Shown piece after piece: positions 7,971 to 54,777 of a DNA stretch of 64,000 nt. Position 1 is the first letter of the stretch, and the number at the start of each line of letters is the position of its first letter. Location of the stretch: contig JBAZTO010000004.1 of assembly GCA_041661865.1 (NCBI GenBank), forward strand, positions 614-64,613. Reading direction: 5' to 3'. This DNA is from Phycisphaerae bacterium (GTDB lineage: Bacteria > Planctomycetota > Phycisphaerae > SM23-33). The position numbers and the translations under genes are program-made. The notes beneath the pieces were generated by a model that saw nothing but the letters and a program-made list of their open reading frames with translations, had not been told where the DNA came from and did not search any database.

Positions 7971-8246
7971 ATGAACGAGGCGGCGCTTAAGAAGAGGATC
8001 GATGAGTTGAACGAAGCCTTGGCCCATGCCCCGGTCGAGCCCGGAAAGCTCGCATCCGAGGATGTTTTGCTGCATTCATCCGGCAAAGGCAAGGAGAGTG
8101 TGGATGACCTTTTGGACTACCTGCGGTTGCAGGTGAAGTATCTGATGTTCGACCTGGAGGCCACCAAACGCGAGAACAGCTACCTTCGGCGGATGCTGGA
8201 AGCCCGGCAAAAGCCCGGCGACGACGGCGACGGATCCAAATGGTAG
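7971..8246 (+). CDS. small coiled-coil protein, hypothetical (91 aa)
   Basis: ATG 7971 preceded by GAGGGAGG SD; upstream 350-bp AT-rich region; downstream hairpin + T-tract terminator (8340-8383); coding-like GC3. Confidence 0.5.
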   Translation: MNEAALKKRIDELNEALAHAPVEPGKLASEDVLLHSSGKGKESVDDLLDYLRLQVKYLMFDLEATKRENSYLRRMLEARQKPGDDGDGSKW

Positions 8247-9737: not shown

Positions 9738-9740
9738 AGC

Positions 9741-9790
9741 CAATGACGAATGACGAAGTGCGAATGACGAATCAATGACGAAACGTCACG
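9741..9790. repeat. GAATGACGAA-family repeat arm (forward orientation) directly after lexA stop
   Basis: caatgacgaatgacgaagtgcgaatgacgaatcaatgacgaaacg; inverted partner at 11368-11420; complete IR copies at 30786-30909 and 34249-34380. Confidence 0.7.
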
Positions 9791-9977
9791 TGCCACATCC
9801 AAGCGAGGCAACGCGCAAGTTGGGGGTGTTCATCTTCGCCCCAAGCACACAACGCTTCTTGGGACGCCCAATCGAACATTTGCCCAGGCCACCTGCCGCC
9901 GTGCTGGCCGTGCATAACGACGGACCGGTTCTGGGCATGGAACTGCCATAGATACTGAACAAGAGGGGTGCAAAATC

Positions 9978-11168: not shown

Positions 11169-11169
11169 T

Positions 11170-11420
11170 CCGTTTGCGGAAGGGCATGTTGATCGTGATG
11201 CCGTGGGCGGGTGCCGTGGTCGCGGCGTTTGCGACCACGAGCAGAAACGACGATACCCGCTCGCTTCGCGCTCGCGGCTAGTGCGCCAAGGCGCGGGCCT
11301 TGGTGCCTGCCTGCCGGTAGGCAGGTTGCGCGCCCTACATTCCGCTTAGTTCGTCCCCGCTGTCTTGGTCATTTGTGCTTCGTCATTGATTTGTCATTCG
11401 AGTTTCGTCATTCGTCATTC
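11170..11420. repeat. mosaic cluster of REP-like modules (BIME-like)
   Basis: Contains GGGTGCCGTGGTCGCGGCGTTTGCGACCACG (11210-11240, identical 31-mer at 56963), right half of CTAGCCGCGAGCGC element (11265-11295), CTGCCKGTAGGCAGGTTGCRCGCCCT module (11315-11345, also at 36519-36547) and inverted GAATGACGAA arm (11368-11420). Confidence 0.7.
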
Positions 11421-22082: not shown

Positions 22083-22497
22083 GCTGTTCCCTCTCGCCTC
22101 GGCCATAGAGGACCAGCAGGATGATCGCCCGCGAGACGAACAGCACGATAAAGCCGCTAAACGTGATCAGCGGAAGGATTTCAATCGACACCGTCGTCTG
22201 CCCGCGGTGGTAGAGAATGTACCACGGGACGAAACTGGTCAGGACAAAGGTCAGGTACGACAGCATTCCGCCGCCAACGGTGGCCCGGCGGGCGATGTCC
22301 ACATCCCGCTCGTCGGCGGACACAATATCGGCCGAGGTTCTGCGAAAGAGGATTGGCCCCAGCCCGGCCAGACCGCACAGCCCAAATGCGCCCGTGGCGC
22401 CTTTCGGACCGACAAAAAGAAGAAGCGTTAGGAATCCCGTTAGAGCCAACGCGAATGCTCCCACAATTAGCCACGCCATCTTCTGCTCTCTGTTCAT
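22072..22497 (-). CDS. DUF2178-like membrane protein co-transcribed with the XRE regulator
   Basis: 4 TM helices; start at Met10 with SD AAGGGG; 3' end overlaps XRE start by 11 nt; a membrane protein paired with a short HTH protein is a common two-gene arrangement. Confidence 0.55.
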   Translation of the reverse strand: MNREQKMAWLIVGAFALALTGFLTLLLFVGPKGATGAFGLCGLAGLGPILFRRTSADIVSADERDVDIARRATVGGGMLSYLTFVLTSFVPWYILYHRGQTTVSIEILPLITFSGFIVLFVSRAIILLVLYGRGEREQHVR

Positions 22498-22800
22498 GTC
22501 GTACCCCTTCTGGCGATAAAACAATGATCTCTTTTGGAATGCTTAATACGGCAAAATAGTATACTATTACATACTTTATGTCAAGTATATAGTACATTTA
22601 TACGAATAAAATTGTTTGTGAATATAACTTGTTCCCAAGATAGGAGTTACAACCTAGAATCCCCCGACTAAGGACTACGGATTACCAAGAGATGCAACCC
22701 AATTGAGGATTGATAGTAGTTTCGCATGTCCGCAAACCTGCCGCAGTCATCGGACACAAGTTGCCACCTTGCCTGTGTCTGCTTACACAACGAGATGTTG

Positions 22801-22844
22801 CTGTTCTTTGTGGTCTCTGTGGCCTTCGTGATCTTCGTGATTTC
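22801..22844. repeat. 9-bp-periodic repeat arm (CTYYGTG orientation) overlapping rmuC stop codon
   Basis: ctgttctttgtggtctctgtggccttcgtgatcttcgtgatttc. Confidence 0.55.
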
Positions 22845-23890
22845 TATTGGTCTTTGCTGATGCGGAGTTGCTCGATGCGGTCGAGGGGTTTTTCGAGCTG
22901 ATTGCTGCGGGTGCCGCGGAGGGCGGCGAACTGGGCGGCGGTCTGGTCGATCTTTTGCCCCAGCTTGTCCATCTCCTCTTTGTACTTCTGCCACTGCTTG
23001 TTGAACTCTTCGAGGAACGCGGCGATCTGGTCGGCGCGGGCGGTGACGTTGGCGTTCTCGGCCGCCTGGCGGATGACCGCGAGCATGGCGTAGAGCGTCA
23101 GCGGGCTGGCCAGCACGATCCGCTTGGCCAGGGCCTCGTCGATCAGGTCGCGCTGGCTCTCCATGACCAGGGAGAATAGCTGCTCGCTGGGCATGAACAG
23201 GATGACGTAGTTGACGGTGGAGGCCTTGGGGTCGATGTAGCCGCGCCTGGCCACCGCGGCGATGTGGGTCCGCACGGCGGTGGTCAGTTGGCCCAGCTCC
23301 GCGGCCCGGGTGGCCTCATCGGCGGCGTCGAGGTAGCTCTTGTAGCGTTCGAGGGGAAACTTCACATCCATGTTGGCCTTGAGCCCGTTGGGCAGCAGGA
23401 AGGTGAAGTCAGGCCGCCCGTCGGCGACGCTCTCGGAGGACTGCTTGATGTAGTTGACCCCCTCCTGCATGCCCACCAGGCGGAGCACGTCCTCGGCCAT
23501 CCGCTCGCCCCAGGCCCCGCGGCGCTGCGTGCTGGCGAGCATCTTGTGCAGCTCGCCGGCGGTGGCCGACAGAGAGGCCACGCTCGAGCCGAGCGTTCCG
23601 AAGTCCTGCCGCCGCGACGACTCGATCTGCGCCAGCAGCGTGCGGACCTTTTCCAGTTCCTCGCCCATCCTGGCCTGGGACTGGTCGATCAGGGCCTTGC
23701 GGCCGTCCAGTGCGGCGGCGGCTGAGTCGCCCAGGCGTCGCGCGTTGGCGTCGAGGGCCTCGCCGGCCAAGGCCGCGAAGGTCTCGCGCAGACGCTGGTC
23801 AGCCACGCGGCTGCGAAGCTGGTAGATCACGACGGCCAACACCGCGCCGATGACTGCCCCGATGACCAGGCCAATTGCGAATTCCATCAT
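22844..23890 (-). CDS. rmuC: DNA recombination protein RmuC
   Basis: N-terminal TM helix, long coiled coil, C-terminal RmuC nuclease-like region (NYVILFMPSEQLF, LASPLTLYAML); start MMEF. Confidence 0.85.
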   Translation of the reverse strand: MMEFAIGLVIGAVIGAVLAVVIYQLRSRVADQRLRETFAALAGEALDANARRLGDSAAAALDGRKALIDQSQARMGEELEKVRTLLAQIESSRRQDFGTLGSSVASLSATAGELHKMLASTQRRGAWGERMAEDVLRLVGMQEGVNYIKQSSESVADGRPDFTFLLPNGLKANMDVKFPLERYKSYLDAADEATRAAELGQLTTAVRTHIAAVARRGYIDPKASTVNYVILFMPSEQLFSLVMESQRDLIDEALAKRIVLASPLTLYAMLAVIRQAAENANVTARADQIAAFLEEFNKQWQKYKEEMDKLGQKIDQTAAQFAALRGTRSNQLEKPLDRIEQLRISKDQ

Positions 23891-24108: not shown

Positions 24109-25770
<1,662 letters not shown>

Positions 25771-25904
25771 TCATAAACTCCCGGAGATCGCTCAAAGGGA
25801 AGAGTTCCTTCAACCTAAGGTACGAAATCGTGTCATTATAACCATGAGCATTGGGTTGTCAATGCGATGCGACGGCCACATTTCGCGAGCAGCACAATCC
25901 TTTA

Positions 25905-27698
25905 TTACGTTATGTTAGGCCGCTTTCGCGCATCATCCTGACGAAATCGCTGCCCCAGGGCCCGCAGGGAATCATCATTAAGTTCTGACGATCTAAGGTC
26001 TTGTAGCTCACGGCGGTGCCGCCAATAAAGCAGATTTTTTACTGCATCTTCCAGCGTGGCCTCGAAATTACCCCTTTTTTCGCCCGTCCGGGACAATTCG
26101 ACCACCAGCGGCCCGGCAGAGGACATTTCCTCCCGGGCCAGTAATTCGTCGATGGTCAACCTGCCGGCCTGCCCGAGTTTCCAGACGGTCGCGGCGATGG
26201 CAGCCAGGAAGCTGTCGGTGAAATCGCCGGCGTCGATCTTCTCCGCCACGTGGTCGAAAAGGTCGGGGCGATTGAGTAGGACCTCGAGGATATGGCGTTG
26301 CGGGTCGCCCAAGGCGCCGCCCTGGCCGGCCGGGGCGCCTTGCGGTGCCGCGGCCGTGACGGCGGGGCGCTGAATGTTGCGCGCCAGCCGCCGCATCTGC
26401 TGCTGGAGTTCGCCGGAGGAGATATTGAGCAGGTGCCCGATGTGCTGGGCCAGTTGGCCGCGGCGGACTTCATCGATGGCGCCGTAGGCCTGCGAGGAGG
26501 CGACCAGGCGAAGGAAGTCCTCGATGGCCCGCCGTCTGCCGGCCAGATCTCCGCCGGCCGACTGCACCGCCTGGTATCGCCGCGCCCAGATGTACTCCAG
26601 CGCGTCGGGGGCCTGCTTGACCAGTTCGGCAAAGGCCGGCCCGCCGTGGGCGAGGCAGTAATCGCAGGGGTCCTTGCCGTCGGGAATGCTCACCACGCGG
26701 ACGTGAATCTGCTGGGCCAGGAACAGTTCCAGCGCCCTCTCCGCGGCGGCGGCGCCGGCTACGTCGGCGTCGAAGACCAGCACGATCTCCCGGGCATAGC
26801 GCGAGAGGAGGCGCACGTGGCGGTCGGTCAAGGCCGTGCCCAGCGTGGCCACCACGTTGCCCACGCCGCACTGGATGGGCATCAGTGCGTCGAAGTAGCC
26901 CTCGACGACGATGGCCTGGTCGCTGGAGGAAATGGGCTCGCGGGCCCAGTTGAGGGCGTAAAGCTGGTTGGACTTGTCGAACAGCGGCGTATCGGGGCTG
27001 TTGAGATACTTGGCCCGCTCGTTTTCCGCCAGCGCCCGCCCGCCGAAGCCCACGACCTCGGCTGCGGGGCTGAGGATGGGGAACATCAGGCGGTTGCGGA
27101 AGCGGTCATAGCAGCCGGCCCGCTCTTCGCGCCGGGCCACCAGCCCAGCCGCCACCAACTGGTTCTCGCCGATGCGGTCCCGCATGGCCGAGCGCAGGAG
27201 GGCGTCCCACGAGTCCGGCGCATAGCCGAGCCCAAAGCGTGCGATGGACTCGTCGCTCAGGCCGCGCTTGCGGACGTAGGCCAGCGCTTCCGCCCCGGCC
27301 GGCGTGTGGAGCTGGCTGCGGAAGAAACGCGCGGCGTAGGTGGTCACGGCGATCAGGTCGCTGCGCGACAGGCCCCCTTCGGGAGGCGGGGCGGTGACCG
27401 ATTCCCGCGGCAGGGGGATGTTGGCCCGCTCGGCCAGCGTCTGCACGGCCTCGGGGAAGGAGAATTTTTCGTAGAGCTGGAGGAACTGGAAGACCCCGCC
27501 GCCGGCCCCGCACGCAAAGCACTTGAAGATCTGCTTGGTCGGCGAGACGTTCATCGATGGCTTCTTGTCGTCGTGGAAGGGGCAGAGGCCCAGGAACTCC
27601 TTGCCGCGCTTCTTCAAGGCGACGTACTGGCCGATCAGGTCGACGATGTCCGTCGCCTGGGCCACCTGCTGAATGAACTGTTCGGTAAACCGGGCCAT
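25905..27698 (-). CDS. dnaG: DNA primase
   Basis: Zn-finger CPFHDDKKPS...FKCFACGAGG, TOPRIM region EGYFD; upstream of rpoD in classical dnaG-rpoD arrangement. Confidence 0.93.
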   Translation of the reverse strand: MARFTEQFIQQVAQATDIVDLIGQYVALKKRGKEFLGLCPFHDDKKPSMNVSPTKQIFKCFACGAGGGVFQFLQLYEKFSFPEAVQTLAERANIPLPRESVTAPPPEGGLSRSDLIAVTTYAARFFRSQLHTPAGAEALAYVRKRGLSDESIARFGLGYAPDSWDALLRSAMRDRIGENQLVAAGLVARREERAGCYDRFRNRLMFPILSPAAEVVGFGGRALAENERAKYLNSPDTPLFDKSNQLYALNWAREPISSSDQAIVVEGYFDALMPIQCGVGNVVATLGTALTDRHVRLLSRYAREIVLVFDADVAGAAAAERALELFLAQQIHVRVVSIPDGKDPCDYCLAHGGPAFAELVKQAPDALEYIWARRYQAVQSAGGDLAGRRRAIEDFLRLVASSQAYGAIDEVRRGQLAQHIGHLLNISSGELQQQMRRLARNIQRPAVTAAAPQGAPAGQGGALGDPQRHILEVLLNRPDLFDHVAEKIDAGDFTDSFLAAIAATVWKLGQAGRLTIDELLAREEMSSAGPLVVELSRTGEKRGNFEATLEDAVKNLLYWRHRRELQDLRSSELNDDSLRALGQRFRQDDARKRPNIT

Positions 27699-36585: not shown

Positions 36586-38640
36586 CTACGCCTTGAAGAT
36601 TCTTCCTTCCCGGTACTCCGTCCAGGCCGGCTCGAAGGCGATATTGCGGTCGGGGATCGGCCGGGGCGGGGCGTCGGCCAGATCGAACAGGTCTGCCGCC
36701 GCCGGGTTGTACCGCAGGCTCAGGATGCTGTTGCGGAGAGCGGTGTTCTCGGGGCGGAAGCGGTAGGGTTTGCCGGTGTCGGGGTCGATCAGGGCGGGGT
36801 GCATCGCGATGCCGTCCGAAGCCAGGATGCAGTGACTGCCGCGGCTGCCCACGCCGCGGCCGAACATGCCGCAGATGGCCTTGAGCATCGCCACGTGCGT
36901 CAGGCACTGCTGGACGGTGACCAGGTAAGCGTGAAGCTGCCTGGGATTGGCGACCTTCAGGCCTTCCTCCAGGCAGCGGCGGTACTGCGCCTTGGCCTCG
37001 GCGAGCGCCGCGGCGGCGCCGGCCTGGCTGCGAAGGTGCGCGCCGTGGCGGGTCATGCGTGCGGCGATATCGGCCATCGCGTCGTTGGGGCTGACCTTGG
37101 CGCGGGCGCCGCTCTCCATCGCCCGTCGCAATTCCTTGACGATCCGGCCCAGGCCCGCCTGTACCAGGCCGGTCCGCGCCGCAAAGTCCGGCCCGTCGCT
37201 GCTGTAGACGTGCGCGATGAACTCCGCCGCCCGCATCGCCCCGACCTGCCCGGCATTGAGCGCCGAACCGCCGGGACGCTTGACGCCGTGCGTGCCGGCC
37301 ATCTCGCCGATGACGAACGTGTGGGCGACCGAACTCTCCCACCACTTGTTGACCGCAAATCCGCCGTTGTGGTGCTGGGCGCACACGGCGATCTCCAGGG
37401 GCTCGCGATGGAGGTCGATGCCGTTTTCCTTGTAGATGTCGATGGCCGGCCCGTTCATGTGCAGCAGGCGGTCGATGGGCAACGCCTGCGTCGCTCCGGT
37501 CTTGTCGAGGTAGTCCAGCGCCTCGGGCCGCAATTTGCGGAGGTCGAACTTCTCCCACCCGCTCTTGCCGACGGGGTTGGACAGGAAGTCCATCCACACG
37601 CGCCGTCCGCGGACGACGGTTTCCATGTGGACGGCCATGTCGATCAGCGAGGACTGGGCATCGGTGATCCGCTGGGCGTCGAAGGGCCACTGGTAGCCCT
37701 TGAGGAAGATATTGGTGGCCAGGGTGGCCATGTCGTCGAAATACTCGGTGAGGAATTCGCGCGGGTCGTTGCCGTCGGCGTCGGTGGAGAAGATGCGCGG
37801 CACCACCTGCATGTAGGTGCCCGAGACGTTCCAGCGGAACTTGATGGAGGCCAGGCCGTACTGCGACTCGGTCATGTTGCAGGCTTCCAGTCCAGCCTTC
37901 AGCGCCGGGCTGTGGATGCCGTACTGCCCGCGCGGGTAGACGGTGTCGGCGTAGATTTCTCCGGGCCCGCCGGCCGCCAGCACCCAGTTCTCGGCCACGA
38001 AGGCCGACAGCCCCATCTCGCTGTCGCTGGTGCGGGCCATGTCCAGGCACACCATCGCGACGATGCGTTTGTCGGCCCCGCTGCCGTCGGTGAGAAAATC
38101 GACGACGACGTGCTTGTCGACGATCTCGACGCCCTCGCGCTGGGCCTGGGCCTGGAGCGACTGGGCCATGAACCTGCTGGTCTTTGGGCCGGCGGAGGTG
38201 GCGCGCTCGTAGGGGTCGTGGTCGGTCTTGTAGCCGATGAAGGCGCCCTGCGGATCGTGCGGGAACGGCACGCCCACTTCCACCAGGTGGTAAAAGCCGC
38301 GGAGCGAGCCGATGCCCTCGGCCAGAGCGTTGTCGCCGTTGCAGCAGCCGAAGGCCGTCAGCGTCCGGGCGAAGTCCTCAGCCGTGTCGGACACGCGCGG
38401 GCTGGTGCCCATCTTGTAGTAGGTCTGCTTGTCCGAGCCGCTCATGCGCGACGCGCCCAGGCCCAGCCCGCCGGTGACCACCCGCAGGTGCGAGGCCGGG
38501 TCGGCCACGCCGCGAACGCGCCAGAACTCCACCAGCTTGACCGCGCAGTTCATCGCCGCCGCTCCAGCCCCGACGATCACGGTGTTGACGCAGGTGACGG
38601 GTATCGAAAGGCCGTCAATGGTGAGAGTATTCTTCAACAT
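36586..38640 (-). CDS. FAD-binding oxidoreductase (fumarate reductase/succinate dehydrogenase flavoprotein-like)
   Basis: N-terminal VIVGAGAAAMNCA dinucleotide-binding motif; 684 aa with FAD-binding 2-like regions. Confidence 0.8.
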   Translation of the reverse strand: MLKNTLTIDGLSIPVTCVNTVIVGAGAAAMNCAVKLVEFWRVRGVADPASHLRVVTGGLGLGASRMSGSDKQTYYKMGTSPRVSDTAEDFARTLTAFGCCNGDNALAEGIGSLRGFYHLVEVGVPFPHDPQGAFIGYKTDHDPYERATSAGPKTSRFMAQSLQAQAQREGVEIVDKHVVVDFLTDGSGADKRIVAMVCLDMARTSDSEMGLSAFVAENWVLAAGGPGEIYADTVYPRGQYGIHSPALKAGLEACNMTESQYGLASIKFRWNVSGTYMQVVPRIFSTDADGNDPREFLTEYFDDMATLATNIFLKGYQWPFDAQRITDAQSSLIDMAVHMETVVRGRRVWMDFLSNPVGKSGWEKFDLRKLRPEALDYLDKTGATQALPIDRLLHMNGPAIDIYKENGIDLHREPLEIAVCAQHHNGGFAVNKWWESSVAHTFVIGEMAGTHGVKRPGGSALNAGQVGAMRAAEFIAHVYSSDGPDFAARTGLVQAGLGRIVKELRRAMESGARAKVSPNDAMADIAARMTRHGAHLRSQAGAAAALAEAKAQYRRCLEEGLKVANPRQLHAYLVTVQQCLTHVAMLKAICGMFGRGVGSRGSHCILASDGIAMHPALIDPDTGKPYRFRPENTALRNSILSLRYNPAAADLFDLADAPPRPIPDRNIAFEPAWTEYREGRIFKA

Positions 38641-38720
38641 TCTTCGTCCCTATGAATCGTGAACCACGAATCGCGAGCCACCAGCTACTGCCGATAGGGA
38701 TGTCTGGAACACCCGTAACC

Positions 38721-38808
38721 CAACACAGAGGTCACAGAGCGACAGAGCAGAACACCCTTGTATTCAAAATATGTTGTCTCTGTTTCTCTGCGACTCTGTG
38801 TCGCGTAG
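38721..38808. repeat. 9-bp-periodic inverted-repeat element with 16-bp spacer
   Basis: cacagaggt cacagagcg acagagcag aacaccc ttgtattcaaaatatg ttgtctctgtttctctgcgactctgtgtcgcgtag + TGTTTTTCGG. Confidence 0.6.
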
Positions 38809-38868
38809 TGTTTTTCGGAAGTCTTGGTTTCAAATCGCCAATTCAACTGCCAAGGAACGCTGGCGGCG

Positions 38869-38908
38869 GATCAATCTGCAATCTGCAATTGGCAATCTTC
38901 AATCTACA
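38869..38908. repeat. tandem heptamers CAATCTG x5 in the promoter region of the FAD-oxidoreductase gene
   Basis: gatCAATCTGCAATCTGCAATTGGCAATCTTCAATCTACagg; coordinates +/-2 nt. Confidence 0.45.
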
Positions 38909-39671
38909 GGATTCTCAGGTGGTAGCCGCCATCGACGTTGATAACCTCGCCGGTGGAGAACTTCAGGTCGCCGCGGGCGGCCGCCGCCACCGCGCAGGCG
39001 ATATCCGCCGGCTGGCCCCAGCGCTTGATGGGGGTGATGCCCTCGGCGATCAGCTTGTCGTACTTGTCCTTGACCGTCGAGGTCATGTCCGTGGCAATGA
39101 TGCCCGGGCGAATCTCGTAGACGCCGATGCCAAACTCCGCCAGGCGGGCCGCCCACAACTTGGTGGCCATCGAAACCCCGGCCTTGGAGATACAGTACTC
39201 GCCCCGGCCGGTGCTGGCCGTGTAGGCGCTCATCGAGGAAATGTTCACCACGCACATCCAACTCTCGGGCCGCTGCCGGCGCTGGCGAACCATCCAGTTG
39301 GCCGCCGCCTGGGTCAGGAAGTAGGGGCCCTTGAGGTTGATGGTCATCACCCGGTCGTAGCTCTCTTCGGTGGCCTCCAGAATGTCGGCCCGCACCTTGG
39401 GCGCCACCCCGGCGTTGTTCACCAGCACGTCCAGCCGCCCGAAGGTCCGCTCGATTCGCTCCAGGGCCCCGGCCCGGTCAGTCGCGGAGGTGACGTCGCC
39501 GGTAATGGCCAAGCCGCGCCGGCCGATCGATTCGATCTGGGCCACGGTCTCGTCGGCAGCGATGACGTCAAAGACCGCCACGTCCATGCCGTTGCGGGCC
39601 AGTTCGGCGGCAATGGCTGCCCCGATACCGCGGGCGGCCCCCGTCACCAGTGCCACAGGTTGATCGCTCAT
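38904..39671 (-). CDS. SDR-family oxidoreductase (3-oxoacyl-ACP reductase-like)
   Basis: TGAARGIG cofactor motif, NNAG, catalytic YxxxK (YCISK). Confidence 0.9.
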
Positions 39672-39967
39672 TGCATCTCCATTTTTGTCTGCCTGGGGAA
39701 GCCGAAAGTATGACTGTCCCCGCCGAGGCTGTCAAATCCATTGTGGTTGGAGTATGGGATGGGCCGCCAGCAAACCCCCTTCGCAGCCGCCTCCCCTGCC
39801 CCAGTCGCTTGGCGGCAGAAACAAGTCCGTCGGCCCGTATTACCCTCGCAATAATCATTGAGAAAAATACACAAGATTTCGCTTAACATATCGCGGGGTC
39901 TCCCTGATAATGAGATTCGGTACTGGTTACAGTGGCTTGTTCAATCCTGAATGTAACCGCCAAAACC

Positions 39968-40534
39968 ATGAAAGATAATCTATCTACCTTCGCCATCGCC
40001 GAATTGTTGCACGTGGATCCCGGTTCCATAGCCAATTGGATTGACCAGGATATCCTCAAGGCCTACAGGACGCCCGGCGGTCACCGGCGGGTACAGGTCG
40101 GCGACTTGCTCAATTTCCTGCACCAGCACAAGATGCCTGTCCCGCCCGAGTTGAACTGTCATCCGCATCGAGTCCTGATCGTCGATGACGAGCCCGGCAT
40201 TACCCAACTGGTCGCCAAGACGATCAAGACATCTTATCCCGAAGTCGAGGTTCTGGAAGCCAACGACGGATTCCTCGCCGGCGCCTTGGTCGCAACGCTC
40301 AAGCCCAATGTGGTGATCCTCGACCTGCGGATGCCCGGCATGGACGGTTTTGAGGTCTGCCGCCTTATCAAGTCACAGGACCAGACCAAAAATATCGATG
40401 TGGTGGCCATGACGGCCTTTCCCTCGCCTGACAGCGAGAAGAGCATCCTGTCCTGCGGGGCGAGGGTCTGCCTGAGCAAGCCTCTGGACATGGGGGTACT
40501 CTTGAAGGAACTGCGCACGTCCTTCTCGGCCTGA
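39968..40534 (+). CDS. response regulator: N-terminal MerR/excisionase-type HTH fused to REC receiver domain
   Basis: FAIAELLHVDPGSIANWI HTH; receiver with VLIVDDEP, phospho-acceptor Asp in VVILDLRMPGMDG, conserved K in LSKP. Confidence 0.8.
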   Translation: MKDNLSTFAIAELLHVDPGSIANWIDQDILKAYRTPGGHRRVQVGDLLNFLHQHKMPVPPELNCHPHRVLIVDDEPGITQLVAKTIKTSYPEVEVLEANDGFLAGALVATLKPNVVILDLRMPGMDGFEVCRLIKSQDQTKNIDVVAMTAFPSPDSEKSILSCGARVCLSKPLDMGVLLKELRTSFSA

Positions 40535-47653: not shown

Positions 47654-49303
47654 TCAATGTCGCCTTCTGCGCCTTCGGCGTCTTCCGCCGCCCTGACCGC
47701 CCTGACCCTGCCCGTCGCTTGGGCCCTGGCCGGCTGGCGGGCCGCCGGCTTGTCCGGTGGCGCCGAGAGGGCTGCTCTGCGGCGAGGTGGGGTTGGGCGC
47801 TGCCGTGCGAGCCGGCTGCGATGGGGCGGCGTTGCCGCCCTGGCCGTCGCGACGCTCCCCGCCGCGCCGCCTGCGACCCCTGCGATGCCGCCGTCTCTGA
47901 GAGTCCTCCTGTCCCGGAGATGCGGGCGTCGAGGCACGCTGCACCTCTGAGGGCACCGCGGGCTGCCCCTCGCTCGGAAGGGCTGGCTGGTCGTCGTTCT
48001 CTGCCGCGACGTCCCCGTCGGCCGTTGGCGGCGTTTGGGTTTTCGGCGCCGCCTCGGGCAGGTCGGCCAGGCGCACATGCACCTTGGGCGGTTCGGCGGG
48101 CCGAGGCGCAGCCGGCGGCTGGATGGATACCGGCGGCACGTCGCGTTGCACGATCTCGTCGTTGCCGATGACCACCTGCGTGCCGTCCTGGAGTAGCAGG
48201 CGGACCAGTTGGGTGAGAATCTGGCCGTCGATGACCTTGCCCACGGCCGTGGCCGTCCGGACAAAGGTGTTCTTGCGGGGCAGGCGGGCGCGAAGCTCCT
48301 CGTAGCCGGCATCCTCGTAGCGCAGGCAGCACATCAGCCGGCCGCAGCGGCCGGAAATCTTGGCCGGGTCCAGCGTGGCCTTCTGCGTCTTGGCCATTCG
48401 CATCGAGATGGGCTTGAGATCCTTGAGAAAACCCTGGCAGCAGCACGGGCGGCCGCAACGCTCGAAGTCGCCCACCAGACGGGCCTCGTCGCGGGCGCCG
48501 ACCTGTCGCATCTCGATCCGCGTGCGGTACTGGGCGGCCAGGCGGCGGACCAGGTCGCGGAAGTCCACCCGTGTTTCGGAGGAGAAGTAGAAGATGATCC
48601 GCTCGCCGCCCAGCAGGTGCTCGACGGTCACAAGCTTCATCGACAGCTTCATCGCGCGGATTTCCTTGCGGCAGTAGGTGGCCTCTTCGTGGGCGTTGCC
48701 GTCCAGGTGCCGCTGGTCCAGCAGGTCCTGCGAGTTGGCCAGGCGGAGGAACTTGCCGTCGCGCATGAAGGGGTAGTCCGGGCCGCAGGAGCGGATGAAG
48801 TCCATCAGCTTGGCCGGCGTGACCAGGCCCGGCCCGCCTTGTTCGGACACGATCGCCACGACCTCGGCCAGTTCCACGCCGCGCTCGGTCCTGGCCACCA
48901 CCTTGGCCCCCGGCAGCAGCCGGCGTTCCAGGTTGTGGCTGAACCCCCCCAACGCCCGCATCACGCCGTAGCGTGCGACGACCTTGCCTACCAGGGCGGC
49001 AAGCTCCGGCGGCAGCGAGGCCTTCTCGGCAGATGCCTCTTCCTGCTCGGCAAGTTGGTCAGCATGGCACTGGGAGCAGCCGCACAGGCCCAGGGCCTGG
49101 CCTGGACAGGCCTCGGCGACATCCTCGCCGGCGGGGGGGGCAGACGGGGAAAAGCCGTTCGGCTCGGCCATGGGCTGGCCCTCAGGCATGGAGGCGGCGG
49201 GGGATTGGGCAGCGCCGATGGGCGCGGATTCTGCCGGGTCGGTCGGGAGCGATGAATCCGACATGCGGGTTCCGTTCTGTAAGCCGCGGCGGCCCGCGGG
49301 CAC
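47654..49303 (-). CDS. PSP1 C-terminal domain protein (RicT/YaaT-like) with long Pro-rich/Arg-Gly-rich tail
   Basis: CGRPCCCQGF and GRCGRLMCCLRYED motifs of PSP1/YaaT; about 170-aa low-complexity C-terminus ending RRRRRRRRH. Confidence 0.8.
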   Translation of the reverse strand: MPAGRRGLQNGTRMSDSSLPTDPAESAPIGAAQSPAASMPEGQPMAEPNGFSPSAPPAGEDVAEACPGQALGLCGCSQCHADQLAEQEEASAEKASLPPELAALVGKVVARYGVMRALGGFSHNLERRLLPGAKVVARTERGVELAEVVAIVSEQGGPGLVTPAKLMDFIRSCGPDYPFMRDGKFLRLANSQDLLDQRHLDGNAHEEATYCRKEIRAMKLSMKLVTVEHLLGGERIIFYFSSETRVDFRDLVRRLAAQYRTRIEMRQVGARDEARLVGDFERCGRPCCCQGFLKDLKPISMRMAKTQKATLDPAKISGRCGRLMCCLRYEDAGYEELRARLPRKNTFVRTATAVGKVIDGQILTQLVRLLLQDGTQVVIGNDEIVQRDVPPVSIQPPAAPRPAEPPKVHVRLADLPEAAPKTQTPPTADGDVAAENDDQPALPSEGQPAVPSEVQRASTPASPGQEDSQRRRHRRGRRRRGGERRDGQGGNAAPSQPARTAAPNPTSPQSSPLGATGQAGGPPAGQGPSDGQGQGGQGGGRRRRRRRRH

Positions 49304-49550
49304 ACGTGCGTTTCCGGTCCTCGGTCCGTCGCCGAGGCTCTAGACGCCCCGAAGGGCCGGCCGGCCTTACGCTCGTCGATGGAGGCCAACCGTCGACCGC
49401 CACACCCGCAAACCCTTTGCCAGCGGAAAGCGGCAGCAGCGGTACCCACGAATTATACGGTATTTCGCCTTCCGCGTTAAGTCCTTTTCCGCAGACCCCG
49501 TCCGGGGCGAGGCATTGTATAATGAAGCAGTGGAGGTAACGAAGTAGCGA

Positions 49551-50870
49551 ATGGAAACTGGCGAAAGAACTGAACTGTCGGTGCAGGCCGAGAAGGCCCT
49601 GCTCGTGACGGTCATGCTGCCGGGTTCGACGGCTGACCCCATGGACCCGGTGGGGGAACTGCGGAGTCTGGTCAAGACGGCAGGGGCGGCGGTGGTTGAC
49701 GAGATGCTCGTCAGGCGCCAGGCGGTAAGTCCCTGCCTTTACGTCGGTTCGGGCAAGGCCGAAGAGATTGCCAACCGCGCCGACATGAACGAAGCCAACG
49801 TGGTGATCTTCGACAACGACCTGTCCCCCGGTCAAATCCGCGAGCTTGAGACCATCGTTCGCCGCAAGGTGATCGACCGCAGCGAGCTGATCCTGGATAT
49901 CTTCGCCGCCCACGCCCGCACGGCAGAGAGCAGCCTCCAGGTCGAATTGGCCCAACTGGAATACACCTATCCACGCCTGACGCACATGTGGAGCCACCTG
50001 GAGCGCATGGCCGGCGGCGCCGCCGGCGCGGGCCAGAGCGGCGGCGTCGGCACGCGCGGCCCGGGCGAGAAGCAGATCGAAATCGACCGCCGCCTGGTCC
50101 AGAAGCGCGTCAGCTCGCTCAAACGCCAGATCGCCGAGATCGACCAGCGGAAGATGCGCCAGGTCAGGAGCCGACAGGAAACCTTCGGCGCCTGCCTGGT
50201 CGGCTACACCAACGCCGGCAAGAGCACGCTGATGAACCTGCTGACCGGCGCGGACACCTACGTGGCCGACAAGCTCTTTGCCACGCTGGACACCAAGACG
50301 CGGCGCTGGGACCTGGGCGAGGGGCAGTCGGTGCTGTTGTCGGACACCGTCGGTTTCGTCCGCGACCTGCCGCACCACCTGGTGGCCAGCTTCCGCGCCA
50401 CGCTGGAAGAGGCCATCAACGCCCAACTGCTCATCCACGTCGCCGACGCCTCGCACGACCGCGTCGAGCAGCAGATCCGCGCCGTCGAGGGCGTGCTGGA
50501 TGAACTCCATTGCGACCGCCAGCGCGTCCTGCTGGTGCTCAACAAGATCGACCGCATCAACGACCCGACCGTCCGCACGATCCTGGCCGGCAAGTATCCG
50601 CGAGCGATGTTTGTCTCTGCCGCCACCGGGGCGGGGGCCGCGGAATTGGCTGCCCAGGTCGCCCTTCGCTCCGCCGGCGCGCCCGTCCGCGTGACGCTCA
50701 AGGCCAACTGCGCCAATGGCCGGCTCATGCAGTACATCGCCCAGCACGCCCAGGTGCTCAGCCAGAGCTTCAGCGACTCCACCGCGCTGATCGAGGCCAC
50801 CATTCCCGCCAAACGCCTCGCGCAACTGACGACCTTCGGCAACGACGTGGAGATCCTCGTGAGGTCGTAG
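49551..50870 (+). CDS. hflX: GTPase HflX
   Basis: HflX N-terminal domain, G-domain GYTNAGKSTLMNLLT, DTVGF, NKID. Confidence 0.92.
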   Translation: METGERTELSVQAEKALLVTVMLPGSTADPMDPVGELRSLVKTAGAAVVDEMLVRRQAVSPCLYVGSGKAEEIANRADMNEANVVIFDNDLSPGQIRELETIVRRKVIDRSELILDIFAAHARTAESSLQVELAQLEYTYPRLTHMWSHLERMAGGAAGAGQSGGVGTRGPGEKQIEIDRRLVQKRVSSLKRQIAEIDQRKMRQVRSRQETFGACLVGYTNAGKSTLMNLLTGADTYVADKLFATLDTKTRRWDLGEGQSVLLSDTVGFVRDLPHHLVASFRATLEEAINAQLLIHVADASHDRVEQQIRAVEGVLDELHCDRQRVLLVLNKIDRINDPTVRTILAGKYPRAMFVSAATGAGAAELAAQVALRSAGAPVRVTLKANCANGRLMQYIAQHAQVLSQSFSDSTALIEATIPAKRLAQLTTFGNDVEILVRS

Positions 50871-50885
50871 GCTGATGAAAAAAGC

Positions 50886-50913
50886 TTGGCAAACGACGAA
50901 GTTGCCCTATAAT
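50886..50913 (+). promoter_or_regulatory. near-consensus sigma-70 promoter TTGGCA-N16-TATAAT driving the low-GC two-gene module
   Basis: aagcTTGGCAaacgacgaagttgcccTATAATacg, about 90 nt upstream of ATG 51006. Confidence 0.55.
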
Positions 50914-51005
50914 ACGAAAGGGTAGGTAGGTGTTCGTCAACAAATAGGCCGGTTTTCCCTCGGTGTTCGGCCCGAGTTTGCCGATGACAAAAAGGGAAAA
51001 GAGCG

Positions 51006-51479
51006 ATGATGGACCCGATCAAGGACAAGCCGAGAACAATCCAACTCGACTATTATAGCGAGCATGAGTGTAAGGTTGTGGTCAAGCCGAAGGACCATGA
51101 CGTATTCATGGACAGTCTCCAGAATGTGACTACCGCTTGTCAACTTGGGAACAAGAGCATAAAGTTTTTTGAGCAATTTCGTCTGCTCCTGCAGAAGTTA
51201 GCACAGTGGTTGAGTCAGCGGCGCGGCCTTGCGCGGCACGCCTATATCACACTCAAAGAAGGTGGGTTTCTATTCATCGTGGTCAGATTGACTGCTGAGT
51301 ACAACCGTCAGTTTGAAGACGATTTGACGAAGCTGGACATCGAAGTGGCAACTGATCCCGAACTGGATTTGGTGAACTTGGAGGTTCTGGCGCTCCCCAA
51401 CGGTTCCACGGACTCACTAAGATCGTTTCTTGATCCTGATACCACTATGGAGTTTTCTCCGCGTGCCGAGCAAGACTGA
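51006..51479 (+). CDS. hypothetical protein (gene 1 of low-GC two-gene module)
   Basis: 157-aa, GC about 47% versus about 65% in flanks; no family recognised. Confidence 0.5.
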   Translation: MMDPIKDKPRTIQLDYYSEHECKVVVKPKDHDVFMDSLQNVTTACQLGNKSIKFFEQFRLLLQKLAQWLSQRRGLARHAYITLKEGGFLFIVVRLTAEYNRQFEDDLTKLDIEVATDPELDLVNLEVLALPNGSTDSLRSFLDPDTTMEFSPRAEQD

Positions 51480-51888
51480 CCACCTTACGCTGGCTCAGCA
51501 CAATCAGGACACCATCGAGTTTCTCGGGGCATCGCACTCTGACTTTTCAGACTGGGTGGCAACCATTGCCTTTTACCGGGCGCTGCACCTAGTAGAATCG
51601 CTCTTCTATCAAGATCCGTCGATCGTGCATGGGTGTGACCATAAGACAAGAGAAGCAATTCTGAAAAGACGTTACAGTATGATTTATGTGCATTACAGGC
51701 CGTTGAAGTCAGCATCGATGATTGCGAGATACCTGATGGATAGTGGTGGCACCGCATACAGGAGATTCAGTGACTACCTCAAGCCGACGGAGGTAAAGAG
51801 CGAACTCTTGGAGTTTCGGCTGAAGGAACTCGAAAAACTCGTGCAAATGCTCCTAGTTGTTAAGCCATCTGGTAGCACCGGTGTCTAA
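51463..51888 (+). CDS. hypothetical protein, possible HEPN-like (gene 2 of low-GC module)
   Basis: overlaps gene 1 by 17 nt in another frame (GTG 51463; ORF track starts TTG 51430); contains R-x6-H-Y stretch (RYSMIYVHY) loosely resembling HEPN Rx4-6H motif. Confidence 0.45.
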   Translation: MPSKTDHLTLAQHNQDTIEFLGASHSDFSDWVATIAFYRALHLVESLFYQDPSIVHGCDHKTREAILKRRYSMIYVHYRPLKSASMIARYLMDSGGTAYRRFSDYLKPTEVKSELLEFRLKELEKLVQMLLVVKPSGSTGV

Positions 51889-52139
51889 CGCAGTCGTGCT
51901 GCATCGCCATCTCCGCCGCGGAAGCCACTCACCCGCCACCAGCAGGGGGAAGTTGTACAAGCCGGCAAGGATCCTGCTAGCACGCCCGGCCGATCACGCC
52001 CTGGAACCGGAAGGACAGGTCGTTCATCTACCGCCAGAACGCGCATGCCGCGCGGGCATTTTGCAGGCTCGGCCATGTCGTCGCGGCGGGGGCGGCGATA
52101 TAATCGCCCGTGCGTGGCGCATCCTTAAAGGAACCCTTC

Positions 52140-53168
52140 ATGGCCGACAACACTTACAGTGATCTTCTGCGGCGACTGCTGGCCGGCGAGAGCCTGTCGC
52201 GCGAGCAGTCGCACTGGGCCTTTTCGCAGATCATGGACGGGCAGTGGACCACCGCCCAGGTGGCCGGGCTGCTGGTGGGCCTGGCGGCCAAGGGCGAGAC
52301 CAGCGACGAAATCGCCGGCGCCGCCTCGGCCATGCGAGAGCACGTGGTGCCCATCGACACCGGCGGGGCGGACGTGATCGACACCTGCGGCACGGGCGGC
52401 ACGGGCCTGGCGACTTTCAACATTTCCACGGCCGCCGCGATGGTCTGCGCGGGCGCGGGCGTGAAGGTGGCCAAGCACGGCAACCGCACCCACACGCGGA
52501 CCTCGGGCTCCGCTGACGTGCTGGCGGCGCTGGGCGTGAACATCGACGCCGCGCCGGAAGTGGCCTCGGCCTGCCTGGCGCGGGCGGGCGTGTGCTTCTG
52601 CTTCGCCGTCCGCTGCCACCCGGCCATGAAGCACGCAATGCCCGTCCGCCGCGAGCTGGCTGTGCGGACGATCTTCAACCTGCTGGGCCCGCTGACCAAC
52701 CCCGCCGGGGCCCGGCGGCAGATGATGGGCATCTTCCGCGCGGACCTGACCGAAACGATCGCGAAGGTGCTGGCATCCCTGGGCGCCCTTCACGCCATGG
52801 TCATGCACGCCGAGGACGGCCTGGACGAGTTTTCGACGACCTGTGGCACCAAGGTCACCGAGTTGCGCGGGCCGAGCATCTCCACGCGGACGGTGCATCC
52901 GCATGATTTCGGCCTCCCCACCGCGCGAATGGCCGACCTGCTGGTCAGCAGCCCGCAGCAGTCGGCGGAGGTGATCCGCGGCGTGTTGGCCGGCAAGAAG
53001 GGCCCGGCGCGCGACATCGTGGTCCTCAACGCCGCCGCCGCCATCGCGGTGGCTGACCGAGTTGAGTCCATCGCCGCCGCCATTCCGCTGGCCCAGGAGG
53101 CCATCGACTCCGCCGCCGCCGCCGCCGCTTTGGACAAGCTCATCGGCGTGAGCAACGGAAGAGGATAG
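52140..53168 (+). CDS. trpD: anthranilate phosphoribosyltransferase
   Basis: GTGGDG-like motif CGTGGTGLATFNIST, KHGNR, NPAG motifs; TATAAT at 52099-52104 upstream. Confidence 0.92.
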   Translation: MADNTYSDLLRRLLAGESLSREQSHWAFSQIMDGQWTTAQVAGLLVGLAAKGETSDEIAGAASAMREHVVPIDTGGADVIDTCGTGGTGLATFNISTAAAMVCAGAGVKVAKHGNRTHTRTSGSADVLAALGVNIDAAPEVASACLARAGVCFCFAVRCHPAMKHAMPVRRELAVRTIFNLLGPLTNPAGARRQMMGIFRADLTETIAKVLASLGALHAMVMHAEDGLDEFSTTCGTKVTELRGPSISTRTVHPHDFGLPTARMADLLVSSPQQSAEVIRGVLAGKKGPARDIVVLNAAAAIAVADRVESIAAAIPLAQEAIDSAAAAAALDKLIGVSNGRG

Positions 53169-53191
53169 GAGACGCGACGATCGAAAAAGAA

Positions 53192-53212
53192 ACGCCCCCT
53201 TAGAGGGGGCGT
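53192..53212 (+). terminator. GC hairpin after trpD (no clear U-tract)
   Basis: ACGCCCCC-ttaga-GGGGGCGT. Confidence 0.4.
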
Positions 53213-53322
53213 CGGCCCAGAGATCCTATCCCTGGGGGGGTTCTTCAATGAATTATATCGGAGCCCGCGAGGCAAGAAACAAGAAAAAAGAAGAAAAAGC
53301 GAACCCCAGGGAATAACACTAA

Positions 53323-53973
53323 ACCATACAAAGAGTTATCGCGTACATTGACGGGTTTAACTTGTACTTCGGCCTACGCGAAAACAAGTGGCGAAGGTAT
53401 TACTGGCTCAACTTATGGGCCTTGGTACTCAGTCTACTGAAGCCTGACCAGAAGCTCGTCCTCACGAAGTATTTTACTGCCCGAATCGCTGGTGCTCGGC
53501 AAGGGGATCCTCCGATGCTAGCGCGTGAACTCGATGCCAAAGTCAAGCGGCAAGGCCTGTTTCTGGATGCCCTGAGTACTCTGCGAAACTTACAAGTCTT
53601 TGAAGGACACTATCTTGGGAAAACCGTGGAATGCTTCCGCTGTGGGGGGACGTGGCGAACCCACGAAGAAAAGATGACAGATGTGAACATCGCCACCGAG
53701 ATCTTGACGGATGCATTCAATGATCACTTTGACACGGCGATTCTGATCTCCGGGGATAGCGATCTTGTTCCTCCAGTACTGGCCGTAAGGCAGTATTTTC
53801 CCGGGAAGAAGATTGTTGCGGCCTTCCCACCGTCACGGACCTCCGAACAATTGAAGCGAGCGGTCAATGCCTATTTCGTCATCGGTGAAGCGAAGCTTCG
53901 GCAAAGTCAGTTCCCGGATTACGTCAAGAAATCAGATGGTTTCACTCTTGTTAGGCCACAGGAATGGCGATAG
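53323..53973 (+). CDS. NYN-domain (PIN-like nuclease fold) protein
   Basis: Frame opens at 53323 (stop at 53320); translation ..RVIAYIDGFNLYFGLR matches NYN N-terminal motif; no ATG/GTG before TTG 53362, so start codon is non-canonical or unresolved; low GC. Confidence 0.65.
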   Translation, partial: TIQRVIAYIDGFNLYFGLRENKWRRYYWLNLWALVLSLLKPDQKLVLTKYFTARIAGARQGDPPMLARELDAKVKRQGLFLDALSTLRNLQVFEGHYLGKTVECFRCGGTWRTHEEKMTDVNIATEILTDAFNDHFDTAILISGDSDLVPPVLAVRQYFPGKKIVAAFPPSRTSEQLKRAVNAYFVIGEAKLRQSQFPDYVKKSDGFTLVRPQEWR

Positions 53974-54024
53974 ACGGACCGCGGCCGGCGCTATGAACAA
54001 AGCGTACTTGACGCGACCGAACCG

Positions 54025-54777
54025 TTACTCTTCCCAGTATTTCGGGCGGCCGTAGTAGTCGTACAGACGAATCTCGTACTCGCGGTTGATCGGCGTCGAG
54101 GGATCAAAATGAGTACTGTGGCGGATCTGCTCGCGTGTCAGATCGACGCGCACTTCCCGGTCGGGCCAGTCCACCGATGTCACCCACGCCGGCGAGACCA
54201 GGACCTTCCGGCCGGGAATCCAGTTCCGCGTGTCGACGATCATGTAGCGGAGTACCCAGCCGTCGGTCTGGACCAGGAAGTCGGTGACGTGACCGACCTC
54301 CCCGTCGGTGGCGTGGATGTGATAGCCGGTCACCTCCTTGATGCTGCGAAGGTGCGGGTCGCCGGTCGTCGGCTTGGCCACCTCGGTGCCTGTCCGCGGC
54401 ACCGTTCCAATCGGAAGGATCATGCCCGTCATCGGCACGCCCAAGGGTGAAATCCAGTAGGGGGCCCAGTCGTAATAAATGGCCAACTGCTCCTCGTGCT
54501 GGCGTGAGACGGGCTGATGCGACTCGATGCCGGGACTGTTGGCCACCTTTTCCCTGGTCAACGCGACGGGAAGGATCGCCTGCGACCACTGGGGCTGGCT
54601 GATCACCAGCGGCGAGAGCAACACCTGCCGGCCGGTCAGCCACCCGCCGGACTCGACCGTCAGATAGCGAATGGCCCACGAATGATCGTCAAACAGGAAG
54701 TCCCTGGCGTGGCCCAGCGGGCCGTCGGTGGCCTCGATTCGATACCCGATGATTTCCTTGACGCTGCGAAGCATCAT
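54025..54777 (-). CDS. tandem PRC-barrel domain protein
   Basis: two repeats of KEIIGYRIEATDG.LGHARDFL / KEVTGYHIHATDGEVGHVTDFL PRC-barrel signatures. Confidence 0.8.
   Translation of the reverse strand: MMLRSVKEIIGYRIEATDGPLGHARDFLFDDHSWAIRYLTVESGGWLTGRQVLLSPLVISQPQWSQAILPVALTREKVANSPGIESHQPVSRQHEEQLAIYYDWAPYWISPLGVPMTGMILPIGTVPRTGTEVAKPTTGDPHLRSIKEVTGYHIHATDGEVGHVTDFLVQTDGWVLRYMIVDTRNWIPGRKVLVSPAWVTSVDWPDREVRVDLTREQIRHSTHFDPSTPINREYEIRLYDYYGRPKYWEE

What the first reader, a model, noticed from the sequence alone, without database searches (positions are those of the whole stretch)
50886..51888. Low-GC two-gene module with a near-consensus sigma-70 promoter inserted between hflX and trpD
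TTGGCA-N16-TATAAT lies 15 nt after the hflX stop and precedes two overlapping small ORFs (157 aa and about 141 aa). Their GC is about 47% in a window that is about 65% GC overall. Neither matches a family I can name. Gene 2 has an R-x6-H-Y stretch reminiscent of HEPN RNase motifs. Overlapping small gene pairs with their own strong promoter are typical of toxin-antitoxin or abortive-infection modules. This is the best candidate here for an uncharacterised small defence/addiction system.
Basis: partly seen in the sequence, partly recalled or inferred. Interest (0 to 1): 0.65.

Follow-up and report, generated by a model that had tools for sequence, protein, structure and literature searches.

The report
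Unannotated HEPN-fold two-gene toxin-antitoxin-like module
A small, foreign-looking pair of overlapping genes with its own strong promoter sits between two housekeeping genes; the second gene encodes a HEPN-fold (RNase-type) protein, the first encodes a partner of no known family, and the same pair recurs in about 90 environmental bacterial and phage sequences, so it is most likely an undescribed toxin-antitoxin or phage-exclusion module.

Summary
A low-GC islet (49.4% GC; window 63.7%; GC3 0.60 against 0.88-0.91 in the neighbours) lies between hflX and trpD. It carries an 11/12 sigma-70 promoter match and two overlapping ORFs of 157 and 141 aa. Neither protein matches Pfam, NCBIfam, PADLOC or PHROGs.

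Instead R89-Y90, H60-x2-R63 and E45 are near-invariant. This fits the "alternative active site" that Anantharaman et al. 2013 described for AF0298-like HEPN-T and AbiV.

Gene 1 belongs to a new alpha/beta family. It has only weak, non-specific fold similarity, including to MNT, and no nucleotidyltransferase motifs.

The pair is strictly conserved. Of 98 fetched loci, 86 have gene 1 directly upstream of gene 2, and the genes overlap in 68 of 85 distinct pairs. It occurs in several phyla and in phage contigs, often next to a terminase gene. Gene 2 alone carries nonsense or frameshift mutations in 4 independent loci; gene 1 alone in none.

Best reading: a new HEPN-based toxin-antitoxin or abortive-infection family. 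Function is untested.

The parts
50871..51900 (.). Low-GC islet between hflX and trpD that contains the whole module
   Evidence: GC 0.494 against 0.664 (hflX) and 0.703 (trpD); GC3 0.60 against 0.88-0.91. No flanking direct repeats of note, no tRNA nearby, no Rfam hit.
50886..50913 (+). Sigma-70-type promoter match TTGGCA-N16-TATAAT
   Evidence: 11/12 match. One of only two sites of >=11/12 in the 64-kb window, with 0.075 expected; about 0.0007 expected in this 136-nt spacer. Consensus match only; transcription was not shown.
50989..51003 (+). Purine-rich Shine-Dalgarno-like stretch (AAAAAGGGAAAAGAG) ahead of the gene 1 ATG
   Evidence: Read from the sequence. The 5'UTR 50920-51010 has no significant structure (z 0.11).
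51006..51479 (+). Gene 1, 157 aa: new alpha/beta protein family, proposed antitoxin or regulator partner
51449..51452 (+). GGAG Shine-Dalgarno for gene 2, embedded in the 3' end of gene 1
   Evidence: Lies 10 nt before GTG 51463. A TGGAGT(A/T) motif recurs at the same place in many homologous loci.
51463..51888 (+). Gene 2, 141 aa: HEPN-fold protein with a non-canonical conserved site, proposed toxin/effector

Best explanation
This is a horizontally mobile two-gene operon of the toxin-antitoxin / abortive-infection type. It is transcribed from its own near-consensus sigma-70 promoter and translationally coupled through a 17-nt overlap.

Gene 2 is a divergent HEPN-domain protein of the AF0298-like (HEPN-T) / AbiV-like kind. 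It lacks the canonical Rx4-6H histidine. It keeps an invariant basic residue at the end of helix 3 (R89, followed by Y90), an invariant histidine and arginine in the insert between helices 2 and 3 (H60-x2-R63, plus H56), and an acidic residue in helix 2 (E45).

I infer that gene 2 is the growth-inhibiting effector, most likely a metal-independent RNase or an RNA-binding translation blocker. I infer that gene 1, a new alpha/beta family without nucleotidyltransferase motifs, holds it inactive by direct binding (type II-like neutralisation).

The biological role would be addiction of the carrying element and/or exclusion of competing phages.

Shown here: the anatomy, the conservation of the pair, the fold of gene 2, the motif status, the mobility and the decay asymmetry.

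Inferred: toxicity, RNase chemistry, neutralisation by binding, and the defence role.
For: 1. Real genes. Both families are conserved, with median dN/dS of 0.57 and 0.46. Gene 2 has 1997 clusters.

2. Obligate pairing. Gene 1 lies directly upstream on the same strand in 86/98 loci, and 6 of the 12 exceptions are contig-edge cases. The stop and start codons overlap in 68/85 distinct pairs, with modes of -11, -8 and -17 nt.

4. Conserved site. The conserved residues match the alternative site described for 2hsb-like HEPN-T and AbiV in PMC3710099. 2hsb is the top structural hit.

5. Mobility. The module has lower GC than its flanks in all 7 loci tested. It occurs in Phycisphaerae, Gemmataceae, Isosphaeraceae, Planctomycetales, Anaerolineales and Omnitrophica, in 8 IMG/VR contigs, and next to terminase-like genes in 9 loci.

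6. Decay asymmetry. Gene 2 alone is inactivated in 4 independent loci: W31stop, S57stop (with intact sister contigs) and two frameshifts. Gene 1 alone is inactivated in none.

7. Partner swap. In L058 an XRE-type HTH protein (HTH_31, E 3e-8) occupies the upstream position, as is typical of antitoxins.

8. Defence link. One family member (P0123) is fused to a Shedu SduA_C nuclease domain.

9. Promoter. The match is strong and far beyond chance.
Against: - No experimental data exist.
- The canonical Rx4-6H catalytic motif is absent, so the domain could be non-catalytic.
The active-site mapping rests on helix positions and on the literature.
- Gene 1 has no recognisable DNA-binding or known antitoxin domain, and its fold matches are weak.
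- The decay asymmetry is 4 versus 0, which is suggestive only (one-sided sign test p about 0.06). The two frameshifts could be assembly errors.
- No profile in PADLOC, Pfam or PHROGs supports a defence or TA label.
- There are no matches in cultured phages or plasmids.
- The window copy is not in a recognisable defence island, apart from an unproven NYN/HEC-09 gene beyond trpD.
Confidence: 0.5

Rival explanations
1. The pair is a non-toxic regulatory pair. Gene 2 is a catalytically inactive HEPN domain that binds RNA or nucleotides, as proposed for human sacsin HEPN or MtlR. Gene 1 is its ligand or partner. Phages and islands carry the pair to modulate host or phage gene expression rather than to kill or arrest cells.
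For: - The canonical Rx4-6H is absent.
- The second-best structural hit is the sacsin HEPN domain.
- PMC3710099 notes that HEPN families lacking the motif may act non-catalytically.
- The module sits at a fixed place next to terminase-like genes in many phage contigs.
Against: - Near-invariant H60, R63, R89, H42, H7 and E45 look like a catalytic or ligand site rather than a decayed one.
- The same paper proposes an alternative active site for exactly this configuration.
- Selective loss of gene 2 in 4 loci fits a costly or toxic product.
Confidence: 0.2
2. It is a type VII-like system. Gene 1 is a highly derived MNT-type nucleotidyltransferase that neutralises the HEPN protein by covalent modification, for example AMPylation of the invariant Y90 next to R89, as MntA does to HepT.
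For: - The gene order, sizes and overlap resemble MntA-HepT modules.
- An invariant tyrosine follows the invariant arginine in gene 2.
- The AF0298-like HEPN-T clade is nucleotidyltransferase-associated.
Against: - Gene 1 has no conserved G[SG] or DxD/E motif. The strand where the DxD would sit is uniformly hydrophobic, with consensus LLFLVV.
- No Pfam NTP_transf_2/Polbeta hit occurs in any of 66 members.
Confidence: 0.07
3. The roles are reversed. Gene 1 is the effector or toxin and the HEPN protein is its regulator or antitoxin, as was once predicted for MNT-HEPN pairs.
For: - In most TA operons the antitoxin gene comes first, but exceptions exist.
- Gene 1 has conserved polar residues of unknown role: C45, D111, E104 and R84.
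- PMC3710099 recounts that the first prediction for MNT-HEPN had the roles this way round.
Against: - Gene 2, not gene 1, is the one found inactivated alone.
- In L058 the upstream partner is replaced by an HTH protein while the HEPN gene is kept.
- HEPN proteins are the toxins in all characterised pairs.
Confidence: 0.08
4. It is a chance ORF pair or annotation artefact in an AT-richer spacer.
For: None beyond the absence of database family matches.
Against: - Dozens of distinct homologous pairs exist, with conserved order, overlap and residues.
- The structure predictions are confident.
- dN/dS is below 1.
Confidence: 0.01

Closest known systems
AF0298-like HEPN-T proteins (PDB 2hsb; Pfam HEPN PF05168 clade) as described by Anantharaman et al. 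2013 (PMC3710099)
   Different: The window protein has no significant sequence match to PF05168, and only 3/85 relatives touch it weakly. The partner is not an MNT nucleotidyltransferase. Extra conserved residues (H7, N14, H42, R63, Y90) are not described for that clade.
HepT-MntA (HEPN/MNT) type VII toxin-antitoxin systems, e.g. SO_3166/SO_3165 (5yep) and Aphanizomenon HEPN/MNT (7ae2)
AbiV (lactococcal abortive-infection HEPN protein)
   Same: [quoted passage not shown] Its role is phage exclusion.
   Different: AbiV is a single-gene system of about 200 aa. No Pfam or PADLOC Abi profile matched either protein here. The module here has an obligate upstream partner.
Shedu (SduA) defence nucleases with variable N-terminal domains
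   Same: One relative of gene 2 (P0123, 335 aa) carries this HEPN-like domain at residues 1-123 in front of a SduA_C nuclease domain (E 1e-16). This links the domain family to defence proteins.
   Different: The window module has no SduA_C domain, and this is a single fusion among 85 sampled relatives.

Membership tests
HEPN superfamily (fold level) | [quoted passage not shown] | tested here: met
HEPN superfamily (catalytic type) | Conserved Rx4-6H motif at the end of helix 3 / start of the following loop | tested here: not met
R89 is conserved in 84/85, but positions 93-96 hold no conserved H; D93 occurs in 34/85.
AF0298-like HEPN-T / AbiV-type HEPN (alternative site, PMC3710099) | Basic residue kept at the motif's R position, plus a strongly conserved His N-terminal to it in the helix 2-3 insert, plus an acidic residue in helix 2 | tested here: met
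   R89 84/85; H60 84/85 (H56 67/85) within the 51-70 insert; E45 is E or D in 83/85.
AF0298-like HEPN-T / AbiV-type HEPN (alternative site, PMC3710099) | These residues are juxtaposed in three dimensions and superpose on those of 2hsb | not testable with these tools
Pfam HEPN (PF05168) by sequence | Profile match above the gathering score | tested here: not met
   The window protein has no hit at E<=1. 3/85 relatives hit, with best E 5.2e-5.
HepT-MntA type VII toxin-antitoxin | HEPN toxin with an RX4HXY motif whose tyrosine is AMPylated | tested here: not met
   The motif is absent. AMPylation itself is not testable here.
HepT-MntA type VII toxin-antitoxin | Partner is a minimal nucleotidyltransferase with G[SG]-x9-13-DxD/E catalytic residues | tested here: not met
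Toxin-antitoxin modules in general | Two small adjacent co-directional genes, overlapping or abutting, with their own promoter | tested here: met
   17-nt overlap in the window; overlap in 68/85 pairs; 11/12 promoter match.
Toxin-antitoxin modules in general | Patchy, horizontally spread distribution, on mobile elements and in variable chromosomal sites | tested here: met
   Found in several phyla, in IMG/VR contigs and next to terminase-like genes. The flanks differ (hflX/trpD here, ispG/CBM9 in L104). GC is below that of the flanks.
Toxin-antitoxin modules in general | The toxin arrests growth and the cognate antitoxin neutralises it | not testable with these tools
   Only indirect support: gene 2 alone is inactivated in 4 loci, gene 1 alone in 0.
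Known anti-phage defence systems (PADLOC-DB 2.0) | Profile match to a component of a known or candidate system | tested here: not met
   No hit for either window protein. No recurrent hit among 66 gene 1 and 85 gene 2 relatives, apart from the single Shedu fusion.

The most novel reading that the evidence does not exclude
The pair is a new, widespread family of phage-exclusion (abortive-infection) systems, with roughly 2,000 sequence clusters for the HEPN component. It is carried by uncultured phages and chromosomal islets. A non-canonical HEPN RNase uses an H60/R63/R89 site instead of Rx4-6H. It is held in check by a previously unseen alpha/beta-fold inhibitor or sensor protein that may descend from a catalytically dead MNT. 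If so, the pair would link type VII (enzymatic) and type II (binding) neutralisation of HEPN toxins.
Probability: 0.25. Interest if true: 0.65.

Novelty: new variant of a known kind. Interest (0 to 1): 0.47.

Why it matters
HEPN RNases are the effectors of many toxin-antitoxin, abortive-infection and CRISPR-associated systems.

A large family (1997 clusters at 50% identity) with an obligate partner of unknown fold family is missing from Pfam, NCBIfam, PADLOC and PHROGs. It is therefore invisible to current defence and TA annotation pipelines.

If gene 2 is an active nuclease, it would give an experimental handle on the "alternative active site" that was predicted in 2013 for AF0298-like and AbiV-like HEPN domains.

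Gene 1 would define a new antitoxin or regulator fold.

The module's frequent position beside terminase genes of uncultured phages suggests a role in conflicts between phages.

Tried and rejected
- **Single-sequence profile searches.** Both proteins against Pfam, NCBIfam, PADLOC and PHROGs: nothing.
- **PDB sequence searches.** Profiles of both families found only noise.
- **Word-index homology search.** It found only 3 relatives of gene 2 and none of gene 1. This under-estimated both families, and the exhaustive HMMER search and locus mining corrected it.
- **Fold search for gene 1.** The AFDB50 library was not available. BFVD gave no hit at E<=0.001.
- **GenBank phages and PLSDB plasmids (tblastn of gene 2).** No match.
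- **Distant viral branch (L015, L017, L018).** hhalign of the gene 1 profile against the upstream ORFs was not significant. Homology of those partners is unproven.
- **Presence/absence polymorphism.** Exact-protein look-up of HflX returned only the island-bearing contig.
- **Insertion scars and RNA elements.** No convincing flanking repeats, no tRNA within 6 kb, no Rfam family, no structured leader, no intrinsic terminator after gene 2.
Rejected on conservation and position.

Full report
**1. The observation**

The sequence is as described.
- hflX (49551-50870) ends 15 nt before TTGGCA-N16-TATAAT (50886-50913), an 11/12 match to the sigma-70 consensus.
- In my own scan, only two sites of 11/12 or better occur in the whole 64-kb window on both strands. 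A first-order Markov model expects 0.075. About 0.0007 are expected in the 136-nt spacer at island composition.
- Two ORFs follow. Gene 1 is 51006-51479 (157 aa).
- Gene 2 starts at GTG 51463 and ends at 51888 (141 aa), overlapping gene 1 by 17 nt. A GGAG lies 10 nt upstream.
- Independent gene calls on the same contig give the same two products. All homologues start at the equivalent M-P-S position.
- The islet is 49.4% GC against 63.7% for the window. GC3 is 0.60 against 0.88-0.91 in hflX and trpD.
- The contig is from a Phycisphaerae MAG.

**2. The genes are real and obligately paired**

- The word-index search found no relative of gene 1 and three of gene 2. Each of those three is preceded by a gene 1 homologue.
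- An exhaustive HMMER search with the gene 2 profile found 1997 clusters (50% identity) at E<=1e-3, and 493 at <=1e-10. Nearly all are single-domain proteins of about 140 aa.
- Scans of GTDB genomes, IMG/VR and JGI metagenomes, together with the five contigs fetched earlier by exact-protein look-up, gave 98 loci.
- In 86 of them a gene 1-family ORF lies directly upstream on the same strand. Six of the 12 exceptions have gene 2 at the contig edge. With the deeper gene 1 profile, some of these edge cases show gene 1 remnants.
- In 68 of 85 distinct pairs the gene 1 stop overlaps the gene 2 start, with modes of 11, 8 and 17 nt. The remaining pairs are within 47 nt.
- Median pairwise dN/dS is 0.57 for gene 1 and 0.46 for gene 2. 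This indicates purifying selection on fast-evolving proteins. The values are rough because many pairs are near saturation.

**3. Gene 2 is a HEPN-fold protein with a non-canonical site**

- The AF2 model (pLDDT 85, pTM 0.81) is all-alpha, with helices 4-24, 28-50, 60-70, 72-94 and 108-132.
- Further down come the HepT toxin SO_3166 (9.0), LsoA/RnlA, Csm6, and AbiA among the lower-ranked hits.
- Three of 85 relatives weakly hit Pfam HEPN PF05168 (best E 5.2e-5). The window protein itself does not.
- In an 85-sequence alignment the near-invariant residues are H7, W31, Y38, H42, H60, R63, R89, Y90 and F102. E45 is E or D in 83/85 and H56 is conserved in 67/85.

Anantharaman et al. 2013 (PMC3710099) make three relevant statements:
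- The Rx4-6H motif lies at the end of helix 3.
- AF0298-like HEPN-T proteins and AbiV typically lack the motif histidine but keep the basic residue. They have a second strongly conserved histidine from the helix 2-3 insert that could form an alternative active site.
- An acidic residue in helix 2 lies near the site.

Gene 2 fits this description point by point. R89 is at the end of helix 72-94, H60/H56 are in the 51-70 insert, and E45 is in helix 28-50. AF0298 is its best structural match.

The three-dimensional juxtaposition is my inference from helix register.

**4. Gene 1 is a new family**

- None of 66 members gives a recurrent Pfam or PADLOC hit. There is no PHROG and no PDB sequence hit.
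- The AF2 model (pLDDT 83) has an N-terminal beta-hairpin plus helix, then an alpha-beta-beta-alpha-beta(-alpha-beta) domain.
- The conserved residues are W68 (66/66), A44-C45, L61, L65, L107, L110, D111, A115, P131 and F141. There is no G[SG] or DxD motif.
- A catalytically active MNT is therefore unlikely. Descent from an MNT is possible but unproven.

**5. Mobility and context**

- In all seven loci tested, the module has 4-11 points lower GC than its flanks.
- Hosts include Phycisphaerae, Gemmataceae, Isosphaeraceae, Planctomycetales, Anaerolineales and Omnitrophica.
- Flanks differ between loci: hflX/trpD here, ispG and a CBM9/GSDH gene in L104.
- Eight IMG/VR contigs carry a gene 2 relative, and four of them carry the full pair.
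- A terminase-large-subunit-like gene is a recurrent upstream neighbour in nine loci.
- There is no match in GenBank phages or PLSDB plasmids. Carriers are therefore uncultured.

**6. Evidence on which gene is the harmful one**

- Gene 2 is inactivated while gene 1 stays intact in four independent loci:
  - L035-37, a stop at the invariant W31.
  - L047, S57stop, while sister contigs L043 and L045 are intact and differ at 5 of 430 nt.
  - L084 and L009, frameshifts.
- The reverse case was not seen. Two loci (L068, L092) have both genes decayed.
- In L058 the upstream position is taken by an XRE-type HTH protein (HTH_31, E 3e-8), a classic antitoxin type.
- One relative, P0123, fuses the domain to a Shedu SduA_C nuclease.

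These observations favour gene 2 as the toxin/effector and gene 1 as the neutraliser. The numbers are small.

**7. Verdict**

- This is a real, conserved, horizontally mobile two-gene module. Its downstream gene is a divergent HEPN protein of the AF0298/AbiV-like "alternative site" type, and its upstream gene is a new family.
- The most likely function is a type II-like toxin-antitoxin or abortive-infection module (confidence about 0.5).
- The rivals are a non-catalytic regulatory pair, a derived type VII system, and reversed roles.
- The module is not a member of HepT-MntA, AbiV, Pfam HEPN by sequence, or any PADLOC system.
- I rate it a new variant of a known kind, of moderate interest.

Noticed in passing
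window 53362-53973 (+), within a second low-GC islet 53100-54100 just after trpD: The ORF is a NYN-domain protein (Pfam NYN, E 3e-11) that matches the PADLOC candidate HEC-09 over its full length (E 5.5e-79). trpD is therefore flanked on both sides by small low-GC islets that each encode a predicted RNase-fold protein. Gene callers used a later start (152 aa, window 53515-53973), but the HEC-09 profile match covers residues 1-203 of the ORF from TTG 53362. HEC-09 gave no protection in the one published test (bioRxiv 10.1101/2024.01.29.577857).
   Followed up: partly
window 25835-25862 (- strand): This is a perfect 12/12 sigma-70 consensus (spacing 16), the only better promoter match in the window than the one in the finding. 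It lies in another low-GC islet (25601-26201) with no convincing ORF of >=55 aa beside it.
   Followed up: no
window, about 13 segments (e.g. 7501-8201, 9701-11201, 22201-23001, 38501-40301): The window is peppered with short low-GC segments (400-nt windows below 56% GC, against 63.7% overall). Several coincide with 10/12 promoter-like sites (22556-22584, 39707-39735, 39883-39911). Most look intergenic. One holds a 396-aa ORF of 52% GC at 9978-11168 with no assigned function.
   Followed up: no
P0123 (335 aa, from the representative library): A gene 2-like HEPN domain (residues 1-123) is fused to a Shedu SduA_C nuclease domain (181-322, E 1e-16). In this fusion the otherwise invariant W31 is replaced and R89 is K. 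These changes might mark residues used for contact with gene 1 in the two-gene form.
   Followed up: partly
L058 3480-4450 and L068; also L008/L102, L011, L022, L052, L066, L075, L076: A terminase-large-subunit-like gene recurs just upstream of the module in nine loci. In L058 the gene 1 position is occupied by an XRE-type HTH protein. In L068 both genes are decayed remnants.
   Followed up: partly
L015/L016, L017, L018 (IMG/VR contigs), around 4440-5440: A distant, AT-rich branch of gene 2 (119-146 aa) is preceded by abutting ORFs of 160-186 aa. These show no significant similarity to gene 1 by hhalign, although their C-terminal halves look similar by eye. In L015 the pair lies between an NB-ARC/TPR STAND NTPase (871 aa) and a DUF6602 protein.
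   Followed up: partly
L047 839-1249 versus L043 4001-4429 and L045 1952-2380: Near-identical contigs from related samples differ by a nonsense mutation (S57stop) in gene 2. This is a natural loss-of-function polymorphism of the HEPN gene with gene 1 untouched.
   Followed up: yes
L090 3457-4008 and L094 234-632: A sub-lineage of gene 1 lacks the usual N-terminal beta-hairpin and A-C motif and matches the family profile only from position 52 on. The C-terminal alpha/beta domain therefore seems to be the conserved core.
   Followed up: no
window 47654-49303 (- strand): A PSP1-domain protein (Pfam PSP1) has long proline/glycine/arginine-rich low-complexity tails at both ends. It is transcribed divergently from hflX, with a 10/12 promoter-like site at 49452-49480.
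   Followed up: no
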